A DNA stretch of 64,000 nt, taken from NCBI RefSeq assembly GCF_013167455.1, contig NZ_CP038328.1, one strand, 5' to 3'. A program made the translations under genes and the position numbers. This document shows positions 27,351 through 30,518 of this stretch, piece after piece. The notes under the pieces were generated by a model, which had not been told where the DNA came from, did no database searches, and worked only from the letters and a program-made list of their open reading frames with translations. The stretch's first letter is position 1. Each line of letters starts with the position of its first letter. This DNA is from Escherichia coli O157:H7. Lineage in GTDB: Bacteria; Pseudomonadota; Gammaproteobacteria; Enterobacterales; Enterobacteriaceae.

Positions 27351-29372
27351 TTATTTCCCTCGTTTTGCCGCCATCATCGCTTTCAGATTCGCCAGATGGC
27401 TTTGCCCTTTCTGCATCCGTTCTTCGGCGCTGACCACTTTGCGCTCCTGTTCCCAAATCAGATCATCCTGCGGCAGCTCCAGCAAAAAGCGGCTCGGCTC
27501 CGGGCGCACCAGTTCGCCGTACTGACGGCGTTCTTTACACAGCGTAAAGGTCAATTCCTTCTGGGCGCGGGTAATGCCGACATAGGCCAGCCGCCGCTCC
27601 TCATCGATATTATCTTCATCGATACTGCTCTGGTGCGGCAAAAACCCTTCTTCCATACCGACCATGTAGACATAAGGAAACTCCAGTCCTTTTGACGCGT
27701 GGAGAGTCATCAGTTGCACCTGATCCAGCTCTTCTTCACTCTCACCACGCTCCATCATGTCGCGCAAAGTAAAGCGCGTCACCACCTGGGTGAGCGTCAT
27801 CGGCTCATCCAGTTCGCTGCCTTCCAGCATCTCCGTCATCCAGCTAAACAGTTGGTTGACGTTCTTCATGCGCATTTCGGCGGCTTTCGGGCTGGGCGAT
27901 GTTTCGTACAGCCAGGATTCATAATCCATGCCATGGATCAGATCACGCACCGCAGCAATCGGCTCCCGCTCCGCCAGGCGCTGGATTTCTGCCAACCAGT
28001 GAGTGAAGCGGGTCAATGCTTCATAACCACGTCCGCTAAGCGTCTGACTCAGGCCCATATCAAAGCTGGCGGTAAACATGCTTTTATTGCGCGTCATCGC
28101 CCACTCACCCAGCTTTTTCAGCGTAGCCGGGCCAATCTCTCGCTTCGGCGTGTTAACGATACGCAGAAATGCGCTGTCATCGTCCGGGTTAGTCAGCACG
28201 CGCAGATAAGCCAGCAAGTCCTTGATTTCAGGACGAGAGAAAAACGACGTACCACCGGATATTTTGTACGGGATGCGGTTTTGCATCAGGAATTTTTCAA
28301 ATACCCGCGACTGATGGTTGCCGCGATAAAGAATGGCGTAATCTTTGTACTGCGTTTTATTGACGAAGTGATGGGCGATCAGCTCGCCAGTAACGCGCTC
28401 GGCTTCATGTTCCTCGTTATTCGCGCTTAAAACTTTTAGCTCTGTGCCGTAACCCAGTTCGGAGAACAGACGCTTTTCAAAGACGTGCGGGTTATTGGCG
28501 ATCAGGATGTTCGCCGCTTTCAGAATACGCCCGGAAGAGCGATAGTTCTGCTCAAGCTTAATCACCTTCAGCGCCGGAAAATCCTGACTCAGCAGCACCA
28601 GGTTTTGCGGACGTGCACCGCGCCAGGAGTAGATCGACTGGTCATCGTCACCCACCACGGTAAAGCGCGCGCGGCTGCCCACCAGCAGTTTCACCAGTTC
28701 ATACTGGCTGGTGTTGGTGTCCTGATACTCATCCACCAGCAGGTAGCGAATTTTGTTCTGCCAGCGTTCGCGTACTTCTTCATTGCGTTGCAGCAGCAAC
28801 GTCGGCAATAAAATCAGGTCATCGAAGTCGAGAACGTTACAGGCTTTCAGGTGTGCATCATACAGCCCATAACAATGGGCAAAAATACGATCCCGCTCGC
28901 CCTTTGCCTCTGCCGCCGCCTGCGCCGGAGTTTTGAGATCGTTCTTCCAGTTAGAGATGGTCGAAATCAGTTGTTGCAGGAGAACTTTGTCATCTTCAAT
29001 CAGCCCCTCGGTCAACTCTTTAAGCAAAGCAAGCTGATCGGTATCGTCAAATAACGAGAAGTTCGCTTTCATCCCAAGCGCCGCATACTCGCGTTTGATG
29101 ATATCCAGCCCCAACGTATGGAAAGTGGAGATCATCAGCCCACGCGCCTCTTTACGCCCCAGCGTCTGCCCTACACGCTCTTTCATCTCGCGCGCTGCTT
29201 TATTAGTAAAGGTCACCGCCGCAATGTGCCGCGCCTGATAACCGCAACCGCGGATCAGATGGGCGATTTTATTGGTGATAACACGAGTTTTACCGGAACC
29301 CGCGCCCGCCAGCACCAGGCAGGGGCCGGTAACGAATTCGACAGCTTGTTGTTGGCCGGGGTTTAGACGCAT
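27351..29372 (-). CDS. rep: ATP-dependent DNA helicase Rep (SF1)
   Basis: ORF to 29423; recognised N-terminus [29 protein letters not shown] (Walker A) gives 673 aa. Confidence 0.95.
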
Positions 29373-29588
29373 AGGTGTATTGCTCAATCTTCGAACGGGG
29401 GGAGGATTGTAGCAGAATCGCATTTGAATGTGACCGCGTGTAAGCCGCTAACCGGTTGGCTGCGGATGTTTAAATCAGAGAGAGAAGACCGAAATCGGAG
29501 TTCATCGTGAATCCATTAGACTTAGAAAATATCGGGTCGTAACGTTGTGTTATTACTTTTTCAGAGTTTACTAAGGAGAGGTTTACTC

Positions 29589-30038
29589 GTGGCGATTAAT
29601 TTCAGCCCTAAGGTTGGTGAAATACTGGAATGCAACTTTGGTAACTATCCTGTTAGCCAAAATGGACCGTTCAGCACGACGTATTACGATGGCCGCATTC
29701 CTCCTGAAATGATAAAAAACAGGTTAGTTGTCGTGCTCAACGGAAAAATTAATGGCAACGCATTCATCGTCGTTCCATTATCAACCACTCGCGACCATGA
29801 CAAGTTAAAACGTGGAATGCATGTTGAAATAGCCAGTAATGTTATCAATGACCTGCAATTCTTTGATCAGCAGATTCGTTGGGCCAAAACCGACCTGGTA
29901 CAACAAGTCAGTCGAAACAGATTAAACAGAGCAAGAACTTACAGAGGGTATCTTAATCAATGTTTGCCACATGAGTTGGTTGCAGACATACAGAGGGCGG
30001 TCATCAAGTCAATCAATGCCATATCGCTCATAAATTGA
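29589..30038 (+). CDS. yifN: PemK/MazF-fold protein (YifN-like), no adjacent antitoxin ORF
   Basis: ORF 29547..30038; likely GTG start at 29589 preceded by AAGGAGAG; pattern GEILECNFG...RLVVVLNG...AFIVVPLSTT resembles the MazF/PemK core (RPAVVLSP...CLCVPCTT). Confidence 0.6.
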   Translation: MAINFSPKVGEILECNFGNYPVSQNGPFSTTYYDGRIPPEMIKNRLVVVLNGKINGNAFIVVPLSTTRDHDKLKRGMHVEIASNVINDLQFFDQQIRWAKTDLVQQVSRNRLNRARTYRGYLNQCLPHELVADIQRAVIKSINAISLIN

Positions 30039-30212
30039 CAATAAAATCACCATCCCCGATAATGACTTTGTAGCCCATAGAGGCCCTAAGTTTTCTCCCC
30101 TTGAGGGACCTGCGAAGCCCGGATTTTCCGGGCTTTTGCCATATATGTACCAGCCCCTCCCTGACTGACAATTACGTTAGCATCGGCGGATCATGCTAAA
30201 ATCGCCGCCTGA

Positions 30213-30518
<306 letters not shown>

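What the first reader, a model, noticed from the sequence alone, without database searches (positions are those of the whole stretch)
29547..30038. Orphan PemK/MazF-fold ORF (yifN-like) between rep and ppiC with no antitoxin partner
The ORF has a strong Shine-Dalgarno (AAGGAGAG) before a GTG at 29589 and a MazF/PemK-like core, but carries a C-terminal extension of about 40 residues beyond a typical MazF. Neither flank contains a small ORF that could encode an antitoxin (upstream 29424..29588 has only ORFs of about 14 aa or less). It may be a domesticated or decayed toxin remnant or a solitary RNA-interacting protein.
Basis: inference. Interest (0 to 1): 0.35.

Follow-up and report, generated by a model that had tools for sequence, protein, structure and literature searches.

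The report
MazF-like toxin with RNA partner
The "orphan" toxin gene yifN of E. coli has no protein antidote, but it is always accompanied by a small, separately transcribed RNA gene right behind it, which probably serves as the antidote and would explain how a toxin-like gene can sit alone.

Summary
The ORF is real. It is yifN (CDS 29589..30038, 149 aa) in an E. coli O157:H7-type chromosome. It matches Pfam PemK_toxin and has a MazF fold. It keeps the equivalents of MazF E24/R29/T52 and is under strong purifying selection (dN/dS about 0.05). The supposed 40-residue C-terminal extension is not there: the extra length is mostly an enlarged beta1-beta2 loop. No conserved protein antitoxin exists, even on 6-kb plasmids.

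The gene is not solitary. A sigma-70 promoter overlaps its stop codon and drives a ~71-79 nt RNA (30070..30140). This RNA has two small hairpin repeats and a terminator. A 2014 northern blot detected it, but it is unannotated and absent from Rfam. It follows yifN in 29 of 30 YifN-clade loci from other genera, ICEs and plasmids, and in 35 of 35 contigs found from the RNA alone. It is inverted or moved in some loci. It survives where yifN is broken, as in K-12. More distant relatives carry a second, ~125-nt structured RNA in the same position.

Best reading: a toxin plus RNA antitoxin module, type III-like but with a PemK-family toxin and a different layout. This is inferred, not tested.

The parts
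29589..30038 (+). yifN coding sequence (GTG start, 149 aa, TGA stop at 30036-30038): PemK/MazF-fold protein, putative endoribonuclease toxin
   Evidence: RefSeq CDS in identical genomes. Pfam PF02452 at E=1.5e-10. AlphaFold2 model pLDDT 80 with top structural matches to MazF proteins. dN/dS 0.05-0.06. Homologues begin at this codon.
29547..29588 (+). In-frame upstream extension of the maximal ORF (GTG 29547). Possibly the second initiation site; not conserved in other genera.
   Evidence: ORF list. Ribo-RET reported signals at both the annotated and an upstream in-frame start of yifN (10.1101/520783). The family alignment starts at MAINF = 29589.
29573..29580 (+). Shine-Dalgarno AAGGAGAG, 8 nt before the GTG at 29589
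   Evidence: Read directly from the sequence.
30035..30063 (+). Sigma-70 promoter of the small RNA: TTGACA-17-GATAAT (11 of 12 matches). The -35 hexamer contains the yifN stop codon.
   Evidence: Promoter scan. An equivalent promoter sits with its -10 ending 4-7 nt (6 nt in 30 of 37) before the conserved RNA 5' end in all 37 RNA instances examined, and the -35 overlaps the stop codon in 8 loci. RpoD holoenzyme binding in the ppiC-yifO spacer was seen by genomic SELEX (PMC3946193).
30070..30140 (+). Small non-coding RNA gene (= ecr3777(d+), ~79 nt by RNA-seq and northern blot). Candidate RNA antitoxin of YifN.
   Evidence: Covariance model R1 scores 74.4 bits, E=2e-15, the only significant hit in the 64-kb window. 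The published northern probe matches 30076-30105 exactly. Table S5 of PMC4681348 lists it between ppiC and yifO, same strand, 79 nt. No Rfam family matches. It is unannotated in all 4015 E. coli genomes that carry it.
30073..30084 (+). RNA repeat/hairpin 1: GCC-CAUAGA-GGC
   Evidence: 96% of cells are paired across 38 distinct sequences. The stem swaps to CGG/CCG, with the CAUAGA/CUUAGA loop kept, on Pasteurellaceae plasmids.
30096..30108 (+). RNA repeat/hairpin 2: UCCC-CUUGA-GGGA
   Evidence: 81% of cells are paired, with compensatory UUCC/GGAA variants. Tandem-repeat units with a 25-27 nt period (39 nt in Trinickia) are seen in other lineages.
30114..30137 (+). Intrinsic terminator of the RNA (GAAGCCCGG-AUUUU-CCGGGCUUUU)
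   Evidence: 8 of 9 stem pairs show compensatory changes across the family.
29377..30223 (.). Presence/absence block holding the yifN 5' region, yifN, the RNA gene and the duplicated ppiC promoter region. About 26% of E. coli genomes lack it and have rep and ppiC only 86 bp apart.
   Evidence: 4011 of 5426 genomes carry the block and the rest show a ~780-bp shorter rep-ppiC interval. Junctions were read from alignment A2.

Best explanation
yifN and the small RNA gene directly behind it form a two-part toxin-antitoxin-like module.

Shown:
- YifN is a PemK/MazF-fold protein that keeps the MazF active-site equivalents.
- The 71-79-nt RNA is an independent transcript. It has a near-consensus sigma-70 promoter that overlaps the yifN stop codon, and its own terminator. 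It consists of two (elsewhere three) short hairpin repeats.
- Gene and RNA travel together across chromosomes, ICEs and plasmids.

Inferred:
- YifN is a sequence-specific endoribonuclease that would arrest growth.
- The abundant, constitutively made RNA binds the YifN dimer directly, one hairpin repeat per RNA-binding groove, as pseudo-substrate or inhibitor. This is how type III antitoxin RNAs inhibit the structurally related ToxN and CptN.
- If RNA supply falls (plasmid or island loss, transcription shut-off by phage), YifN is freed. The outcome would be post-segregational killing or abortive infection.
For: Protein:
- Pfam PemK_toxin.
- hhalign puts YifN E40/R45/S65 on E. coli MazF E24/R29/T52. 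These residues are invariant in 47 family members.
- dN/dS is 0.05-0.06.

No protein antitoxin:
- No recurrent neighbouring ORF across 79 loci. Neighbours are unrelated genes.
- The 6.3-kb plasmid pHN61 has none.

RNA:
- Northern-verified transcript.
- Promoter at a fixed distance in 37 of 37 instances.
- Terminator and hairpins supported by covariation. Tandem repeats.

Association:
- Model R1 finds the RNA next to yifN in 29 of 30 YifN-clade loci from a protein-based genome scan. The 30th, Trinickia, has an analogous repeat RNA.
- It is also present on pCAR1 and on E. coli and Pasteurellaceae plasmids.
- An RNA-only pattern scan of metagenomes returned 35 contigs, and all 35 have a YifN gene 29-130 nt upstream on the same strand.
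- The RNA is 81% identical between E. coli and a Pseudomonas element whose YifN is only 58% identical.
- The RNA gene is inverted in a Shewanella plasmid and moved upstream and divergent in Massilia and Herbaspirillum, yet stays adjacent.

Asymmetric decay:
- yifN is frameshifted or truncated with the RNA intact in K-12/BL21-type strains, Rahnella, a TEM plasmid and about 10 metagenome contigs.
- No intact YifN-clade gene was seen without the RNA.

Wider family:
- 27 of 49 distant relatives carry a second, covariation-supported ~125-nt RNA in the same position.
- The few relatives with an upstream HTH or MqsA-like small ORF have no RNA.
Against: - No experiment shows that YifN is toxic, cleaves RNA or binds this RNA.
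- The layout differs from every described type III system. The RNA is downstream with its own promoter, is not an upstream array sharing the toxin's promoter, and has only 2-3 very short repeats.
- YifN does not match ToxN-type families or any PADLOC defence model.
- Covariation in the two mini-hairpins is limited, because most stem pairs are invariant G-C.
- Single-sequence folds give several alternative structures for the 5' half, and RNAalifold predicts only the terminator.
- Many of the 35 metagenome hits are E. coli and are therefore not independent; about 6 lineages are represented.
Confidence: 0.55

Rival explanations
1. Type I-like control. The RNA acts as an antisense regulator that base-pairs with the yifN mRNA (ribosome-binding site) and blocks translation, rather than binding the protein.
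For: The U/C-rich linker UUUUCUCCCC can pair with the yifN Shine-Dalgarno GGAGAGG over 7 bp including 2 G-U pairs (read). Trans-encoded sRNA antitoxins with limited complementarity exist, for example RalA (PMC4041452, listed).
Against: Predicted duplex energies between each RNA and its own yifN translation-initiation region are no better than with non-cognate regions: -19.7 against -19.2 kcal/mol over 21 loci, with cognate ranks scattered. What is conserved in the RNA is two hairpin repeats, not a stretch complementary to the mRNA. Any C/U-rich stretch pairs with any Shine-Dalgarno sequence.
Confidence: 0.12
2. Not a toxin-antitoxin pair. YifN is a dedicated binding, processing or stabilising factor for the small RNA, or the RNA is its natural substrate or regulator. 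The pair then carries out some other function for mobile elements, such as regulating host or plasmid genes.
For: The strict co-occurrence shows functional coupling, not toxicity. Solo toxin homologues exapted for other roles have been discussed (PMC2701414). A plasmid 'toxin' without toxicity has been reported (PMC11826091, listed). The module sits among leading-region or accessory genes on ICEs and pCAR1.
Against: The MazF catalytic equivalents are invariant. The RNA persists where yifN has decayed but not the reverse, which fits an antidote better than a client RNA. Relatives with upstream HTH-type small ORFs lack the RNA, which suggests the two are interchangeable.
Confidence: 0.17
3. Reversed roles. 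The small RNA is the harmful component and YifN is an RNase antitoxin that degrades it, as in type V or type VIII-like logic.
For: YifN is predicted to be an RNase and the RNA carries conserved loops that could be cleavage sites.
Against: K-12 strains with frameshifted yifN express the RNA abundantly enough for northern detection and grow normally. The 78-nt RNA sequence is 100% identical in K-12 W3110 and O157 genomes.
Confidence: 0.04
4. yifN is a solitary or decaying PemK remnant with no partner, and the downstream RNA is an unrelated neighbour, such as a ppiC leader or merely the yifN terminator.
For: The K-12 copy is a pseudogene. In E. coli the RNA lies upstream of ppiC.
Against: The RNA follows yifN in loci that have no ppiC (Serratia, Photorhabdus, Pseudomonas ICE, pCAR1, small plasmids). 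It has its own promoter. It is inverted in Shewanella, so it cannot be the yifN terminator. E. coli strains that lack yifN lack the RNA too but keep ppiC. yifN is under strong purifying selection.
Confidence: 0.04

Closest known systems
MazF / PemK (Kid) / ChpBK type II endoribonuclease toxins (Pfam PF02452)
   Different: No MazE/PemI-type protein antitoxin gene in an upstream operon. About 35 extra residues, of which a 16-aa insertion lies in the beta1-beta2 loop. No PDB sequence hit even with a family profile. A distinct, compact clade, named 'YifN (PemK superfamily)' by JGI. Always paired with a small RNA gene.
Type III toxin-antitoxin systems (ToxIN, CptIN, TenpIN; AbiQ)
   Different: The toxin belongs to the PemK family, not the ToxN/CptN/TenpN families. 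The RNA gene lies downstream of the toxin (sometimes inverted or upstream-divergent) with its own sigma-70 promoter, whereas type III arrays lie upstream, share the toxin's promoter and are separated from it by a terminator. Repeats are ~26 nt mini-hairpins in 2-3 copies, against 34-45-nt units. Processing and complex formation are untested.
Type I systems with trans-acting sRNA antitoxins and non-peptide toxins (SymE-SymR, RalR-RalA)
   Same: A nuclease-type protein toxin is controlled by an adjacent small RNA with its own promoter.
   Different: No conserved complementarity between the RNA and the yifN mRNA was found. The RNA is on the same strand and does not overlap the gene.
E. coli sRNA candidate ecr3777(d+) (Romero et al. 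2014; also Conway et al. 2014)
   Same: It is the same transcript: a 79-nt RNA between yifN/yifO and ppiC on their strand, and the northern probe sequence matches 30076-30105.
   Different: It was reported only as an unnamed, uncharacterised sRNA in K-12. No link to yifN, no homologues and no function were proposed. It is absent from EcoCyc, Rfam and other databases in that table, and from Rfam 15 and RefSeq annotation now.

Membership tests
PemK/MazF toxin family (PF02452, CcdB/MazF fold) | Significant match to the family profile above the curated cutoff | tested here: met
   41.7 bits against a cutoff of 23.1, E=1.5e-10; residues 38-141 match profile positions 15-108 of 109.
PemK/MazF toxin family (PF02452, CcdB/MazF fold) | MazF fold (SH3-like barrel plus C-terminal helix) | tested here: met
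PemK/MazF toxin family (PF02452, CcdB/MazF fold) | Catalytic or substrate-binding residues (E. coli MazF E24, R29, T52) | tested here: met
   hhalign aligns E40, R45 and S65 to them. The MazF sequence used was verified against PDB 3NFC, 5CK9 and 1UB4. The three residues are invariant in 47 homologues. The alignment probability is only 35%, so the equivalence rests also on the structural match.
PemK/MazF toxin family (PF02452, CcdB/MazF fold) | Endoribonuclease activity and growth inhibition | not testable with these tools
   No experimental data on YifN were found in the library.
Type II toxin-antitoxin system (as annotated in RefSeq) | Adjacent, co-transcribed protein antitoxin gene | tested here: not met
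   No conserved small ORF on either side in 79 loci. Neighbours are unrelated genes. The upstream ORFs of E. coli and Superficieibacter are not similar. None on the 6.3-kb plasmid pHN61.
Type III toxin-antitoxin system | Antitoxin is a non-coding RNA of tandem repeats encoded next to the toxin | tested here: met
   Adjacent RNA gene in 29 of 30 clade loci and 35 of 35 RNA-first contigs. It has 2-3 repeat units with a 25-27 nt period, 39 nt in Trinickia. That the RNA acts as antitoxin is inferred.
Type III toxin-antitoxin system | Toxin belongs to the ToxN/AbiQ, CptN or TenpN families | tested here: not met
Type III toxin-antitoxin system | RNA array upstream of the toxin, one shared promoter, terminator between the two | tested here: not met
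   The RNA is downstream with its own promoter that overlaps the yifN stop codon. Its orientation varies between loci.
Type III toxin-antitoxin system | Toxin processes the RNA and forms an inhibited RNA-protein complex | not testable with these tools
   Needs biochemistry or a protein-RNA structure prediction.
Type I toxin-antitoxin system | Antitoxin RNA is complementary to the toxin mRNA | tested here: not met
   Duplex energies for cognate and non-cognate pairs cannot be told apart. The RNA is on the same strand and does not overlap the gene.
Any Rfam 15 RNA family | Match at or above the gathering score | tested here: not met
   The best hit is rnk_pseudo at 20 bits against a gathering score of 55. 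Homologous loci give no hit for either RNA class.

The most novel reading that the evidence does not exclude
YifN-like PemK/MazF proteins together with their adjacent small RNAs form a previously unrecognised, widespread class of toxin-antitoxin system with an RNA antitoxin. The ~75-nt two-hairpin RNA occurs in Gamma- and Betaproteobacteria. A ~125-nt multi-helix RNA occurs in Geobacter, Planctomycetota, Spirochaetota, Methylococcaceae and some Alphaproteobacteria. The systems are carried by chromosomes, ICEs and plasmids, including pCAR1 and small resistance plasmids. In this reading a canonical 'type II' toxin fold is neutralised by RNA, which would account for part of the long-noted excess of 'solo' toxins.
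Probability: 0.5. Interest if true: 0.85.

Novelty: new variant of a known kind. Interest (0 to 1): 0.74.

Why it matters
MazF/PemK toxins are the textbook type II toxins, neutralised by protein antitoxins. Thousands of genomes annotate yifN as a 'type II toxin' with no partner. If a dedicated small RNA is the antitoxin, several things follow.
- A well-known toxin family can switch antitoxin chemistry.
- Many 'orphan' toxins may have RNA partners that gene annotation cannot see.
- An abundant, unexplained E. coli sRNA gets a function.
- A compact RNA-controlled RNase module found on resistance and catabolic plasmids becomes a candidate plasmid-addiction or anti-phage system.

All of this is directly testable with two small constructs in E. 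coli.

Tried and rejected
- **C-terminal extension:** rejected. The profile and structural alignments span the whole protein.
- **Protein antitoxin:** all-against-all BLAST of flanking ORFs in 79 loci found no recurrent family. The apparent conserved 47-73-aa 'ORFs' downstream in Methylococcaceae and Geobacteraceae are in fact the class-2 RNA region.
- **Upstream 28-aa ORF (29424..29510):** not conserved.
- **Known RNA family:** four Rfam searches over this RNA, the class-2 RNA and their homologous loci found nothing. The weak rnk_pseudo resemblance is not significant.
- **Antisense pairing with the yifN initiation region:** no cognate signal.
- **Shine-Dalgarno mimicry by the GAGG motifs:** rejected, because the Pasteurellaceae variant has CGG/CCG stems without GAGG.
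- **One long hairpin between the two repeats:** it appears in some single-sequence folds. It is impossible in the Pasteurellaceae variant and is not recovered by RNAalifold.
- **Peptide coding by the RNA:** there is no AUG or GUG. The only candidate is a TTG ORF (30101..30199) that runs through the terminator into non-conserved sequence.
- **PDB by sequence:** no hit even with the family profile.
- **NCBIfam and PADLOC:** no match.
- **Literature:** searches for yifN/yifO, type III plus MazF, orphan toxin plus sRNA, the pemK motif, and pCAR1 plus sRNA found no description of the pairing.
Full report
**1. What is at the coordinates**

The window is an E. coli O157:H7-type chromosome. The segment 29350-30250 is 100% identical to O157:H7 genomes. 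The maximal ORF 29547..30038 exists. RefSeq annotates the shorter form 29589..30038 (GTG start, 149 aa, WP_000996692.1) as 'type II toxin-antitoxin system PemK/MazF family toxin', between rep (start codon at 29370-29372, minus strand) and ppiC (30237..30518). This gene is yifN.

AAGGAGAG lies at 29573-29580, 8 nt before the GTG. Homologues in other genera begin at this codon with the sequence MAINFSPKVGE, so the 149-aa form is the conserved protein. A Ribo-RET study reported initiation signals at both the annotated and an upstream in-frame start of yifN (10.1101/520783). That could correspond to the GTG at 29547.

In K-12/BW25113 the gene is a pseudogene caused by a 1-bp deletion at about codon 70.

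**2. The protein**

- Pfam PemK_toxin matches at E=1.5e-10, 41.7 bits against a cutoff of 23.1, over residues 38-141, which align to profile positions 15-108 of 109.
- NCBIfam, PADLOC and a PDB sequence search with a 47-member family profile all find nothing.
- An AlphaFold2 model built on that alignment has mean pLDDT 80 and pTM 0.74. Its only low-confidence stretch is residues 31-41.
- Foldseek against the PDB returns only MazF-type toxins in the top 50: B. subtilis YdcE/MazF, MoxT, S. aureus MazF and M. tuberculosis MazFs, with TM about 0.7-0.78 on the target.
- Profile-sequence alignment to E. coli MazF places YifN E40, R45 and S65 on MazF E24, R29 and T52. I first checked my copy of the MazF sequence against PDB 3NFC, 5CK9 and 1UB4. 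All three residues are invariant across the family, as are C15, G18, K43, P63, R111, L112 and Q135.
- The same alignment shows a 16-residue insertion in the beta1-beta2 loop.
- dN/dS is 0.061 between two E. coli alleles and 0.053 against Superficieibacter.

The gene is a constrained, probably active enzyme in this strain. It is not a decayed remnant.

**3. No protein antitoxin**

The family is compact. It has 48 clusters at 50% identity with E<1e-10 among 1.8 billion representative proteins, and JGI names it 'YifN (PemK superfamily)'.

A protein-based scan of one genome per species returned 79 loci. All-against-all comparison of every flanking ORF of 40 aa or more found no recurrent neighbour family. 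Where an ORF abuts the gene, it is something unrelated:

| Locus | Neighbouring ORF |
|---|---|
| Shewanella | plasmid Rep3 |
| Massilia, Herbaspirillum | DnaD_N/HTH_36 replication-type proteins |
| Aliivibrio | WYL-domain protein |
| Pantoea | DUF1173 |
| Legionellaceae | metallophosphoesterase |

The wider contexts are also varied. In Pseudomonadaceae the gene sits in a run of small hypothetical genes on an integrase-bearing element. In Serratia it lies between a lipoprotein gene and a MerR gene. In Xanthomonas it lies next to radC among transposases. It is on pCAR1 and other Pseudomonas plasmids, on ~55-kb E. coli plasmids, and on 6-kb Pasteurellaceae resistance plasmids. On the latter it directly follows the primase/replication gene, and no antitoxin-sized gene exists on the whole plasmid.

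The 28-aa ORF upstream in E. coli (29424..29510) has no counterpart in the syntenic Superficieibacter locus.

**4. The overlooked partner is an RNA**

A near-consensus sigma-70 promoter, TTGACA-17-GATAAT, lies at 30035-30063. Its -35 hexamer contains the yifN stop codon. A G+C-rich terminator hairpin ends near 30137-30140.

Romero et al. 2014 (PMC4681348) list a 79-nt sRNA, ecr3777(d+), between ppiC and yifO/yifN on their strand. It was detected by northern blot and also seen by Conway et al. 2014, and was absent from all six databases they checked. One probe in their supplement, CTCAAGGGGAGAAAACTTAGGGCCTCTATG, matches window 30076-30105 on the minus strand exactly. That probe is listed against another sRNA, so two labels appear to be swapped.

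The RNA is not in Rfam 15. It is unannotated in all 4015 E. coli genomes that contain it.

**5. The RNA travels with yifN**

- A blastn search with the E. coli RNA region hit the sequence immediately downstream of yifN homologues in Superficieibacter, Chimaeribacter, Pantoea, Photorhabdus, Xenorhabdus, Serratia, Legionellaceae, Aliivibrio and a Pseudomonadaceae mobile element. Conservation begins at window 30070, the predicted transcription start.
- The RNA is 81% identical between E. coli and the Pseudomonas element, although the proteins are only 58% identical.
- Reading the sequences shows the same plan everywhere: promoter, then G-U-W-G-C-C-C, then two (three in Roseateles and Rubrivivax) short repeats, then CUGCRAAGCCC and a terminator.
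- Covariance model R1, built from 24 instances, finds the RNA at E<=1e-5 in 29 of the 30 YifN-clade loci. It finds it only once in the 64-kb window, at 30070-30140 with 74 bits. The remaining locus, Trinickia, has an analogous RNA with two exact CGCCGAAAGGCACG repeats.
- R1 also finds the RNA on pCAR1 and on an E. coli IncX1/F plasmid.
- A promoter with its -10 element ending 4-7 nt (6 nt in 30 of 37) before the RNA 5' end is present in all 37 instances. In 26 of the 37 it matches at least 9 of 12 consensus positions.
- The reverse test also holds. A metagenome scan with a pattern taken only from the RNA returned 35 contigs. All 35 encode a YifN homologue 29-130 nt upstream on the same strand, from about six lineages.
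- In a Shewanella plasmid the RNA gene is inverted, so it is convergent with yifN. In Massilia and Herbaspirillum it lies upstream and divergent, and Herbaspirillum has two copies. The RNA is therefore a separate gene, not the yifN 3' UTR.
- In E. coli the two genes belong to one presence/absence block of about 850 bp (29377-30223). This block is absent from about 26% of 5426 genomes, in which rep and ppiC are 86 bp apart.

**6. RNA anatomy**

The structure best supported across lineages is two mini-hairpins followed by the terminator.

- Hairpin 1 is GCC-CAUAGA-GGC (30073-30084).
- Hairpin 2 is UCCC-CUUGA-GGGA (30096-30108).
- The terminator spans 30114-30137.

On 38 distinct sequences, 91% of cells pair, against 25-67% when the partners are slid by 1-3 columns. 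Twelve of 16 pairs show double changes, including 8 of the 9 terminator pairs. That alignment was fitted to the model and so leans towards the structure. The independent MAFFT alignment gives 87%.

Hairpin stems switch between GCC/GGC, CCC/GGG, GGC/GCC and UUCC/GGAA. On Pasteurellaceae plasmids they switch fully to CGG/CCG, while the loops CUUAGA and CAUAGA are kept.

The repeat units recur every 25-27 nt in other lineages, and every 39 nt in Trinickia. In E. coli the two units are too diverged for the repeat finder.

RNAalifold alone predicts only the terminator, and single-sequence folds differ between species. The 5' half may be largely a sequence-specific, protein-recognised element.

**7. 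Which mechanism**

An antisense (type I-like) mechanism is not supported. Duplex energies between each RNA and its own yifN initiation region equal those of mismatched pairs: -19.7 against -19.2 kcal/mol over 21 loci.

A toxic-RNA model is contradicted by K-12, which expresses the RNA with a broken yifN.

Several observations favour an RNA antitoxin that acts on the protein:
- The toxin active site is conserved and constrained.
- There is no protein antitoxin, even on 6-kb plasmids.
- The RNA has a strong independent promoter.
- The RNA has tandem-repeat architecture.
- The structurally related CptN and ToxN toxins are inhibited by repeat RNAs.
- Decay is asymmetric. yifN is frameshifted or truncated with the RNA intact in K-12/BL21-type strains, in about 10 of 20 E. 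coli-type metagenome contigs, in Rahnella and on a TEM-40 plasmid. No intact YifN-clade gene was seen without the RNA.

Toxicity, RNA cleavage and RNA binding are all inferred, not shown.

**8. Wider family**

Distant relatives at 24-38% identity (most below 34%) come from Geobacter, Planctomycetota, Spirochaetota, Methylococcaceae, Psychrosphaera, Pseudohongiella, Acinetobacter and some Alphaproteobacteria. They carry a different RNA of about 125 nt that starts 10-110 nt after the stop codon, again behind its own promoter.

The consensus fold of this RNA has 17 pairs, 12 of them with compensatory changes. Model R2 finds it at E<=1e-5 in 27 of the 49 distant loci, always on the gene's strand. 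It does not find it in class-1 loci or in the window. It has no Rfam family either.

The few relatives with an upstream HTH_3 or MqsA-like small ORF (Vicinamibacteria, Aliiroseovarius, Paracoccaceae) have neither RNA. This either/or pattern is what one would expect if the RNA and a protein antitoxin are alternatives. The sample is small.

**9. Comparison and novelty**

The gene is a member of the PemK/MazF family by profile, fold and active-site residues. It fails the defining feature of a type II system, which is a protein antitoxin.

It resembles type III systems in logic: an RNase toxin plus an adjacent repeat RNA. It fails two of their defining features, the toxin family and the upstream-array, shared-promoter layout.

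yifN and the sRNA are each already on record. I found no description of their pairing, of RNA homologues or of the class-2 RNA in the searchable literature or in Rfam. I rate it a new variant of a known kind (a toxin with an RNA antitoxin), pending experiment.

**10. Verdict**

The main result is an overlooked, conserved RNA partner. Confidence that yifN and the RNA form a functional module is about 0.9. Confidence that the RNA is a protein-binding antitoxin of an RNase toxin is about 0.55.

Noticed in passing
L035-L083 (e.g. L060 1822-1941, L040 4475-4596, L045 4437-4556): A second, ~125-nt structured RNA (5' GUUCCCG-loop-CGGGCUUGUGAGACU..., several covarying helices, own promoter and terminator) lies directly downstream of distant YifN-like genes in Geobacter, Planctomycetota, Spirochaetota, Methylococcaceae and others. 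It has no Rfam family.
   Followed up: partly
window 30165-30238: The ppiC promoter region contains a ~44-bp tandem duplication, seen as two identical CTGACA-18-GATCAT promoter-like sites. Strain MINF_1A has a single copy.
   Followed up: partly
L003 1-4000 (E. coli UTAK-14, NZ_CP168998.1 5402917-5406916): At least 4 kb of unannotated, ORF-poor DNA sits directly upstream of ppiC in place of rep-yifN. It is unique among 5426 E. coli genomes and has no Rfam hits. It may be foreign DNA or an assembly chimera.
   Followed up: partly
window 29763-29765 and 29889-29891 (YifN residues 59 and 101): The O157 allele has F59 and T101, where other E. coli alleles and the family consensus have C and A. Residue 59 lies on the strand that carries the P63/S65 active-site motif.
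   Followed up: no
window ~29799 (yifN codon 70/71): The K-12 1-bp deletion is shared by a BL21-type strain (NEBExpress) and several other isolates. It also appears in about half of the E. coli-type gut-metagenome contigs recovered. The RNA gene is intact in all of them.
   Followed up: partly
PMC4681348 supplementary probe table; window 30076-30105: The northern probe ORL43 is listed for ecr2775(u+) but is exactly antisense to the yifN-downstream RNA. The labels of ORL34 and ORL43 appear to be swapped.
   Followed up: yes
L029 2982-3219 and 3459-4645; L027 3136-3215: In Herbaspirillum and Massilia the RNA gene (two tandem copies in Herbaspirillum) lies upstream of, and divergent from, an operon of a DnaD_N/HTH_36 protein and a longer YifN (214-227 aa).
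   Followed up: partly
window 30057-30145: There is a weak resemblance to the Rfam 'Pseudomonas rnk leader' (20 bits against a gathering score of 55), sharing UUGAGGG followed by an A-tract and terminator. It is not significant and was not seen in Pseudomonas-type instances.
   Followed up: partly
L023 7702-8093, L017 4743-4815, L049 4161-4235, L025 568-2331: YifN modules often sit in island-like contexts: next to tmRNA with c4/isrK-type RNAs, next to a tRNA gene, near an int-alpA RNA, or among group II introns.
   Followed up: no
It is not conserved in Superficieibacter.
   Followed up: yes
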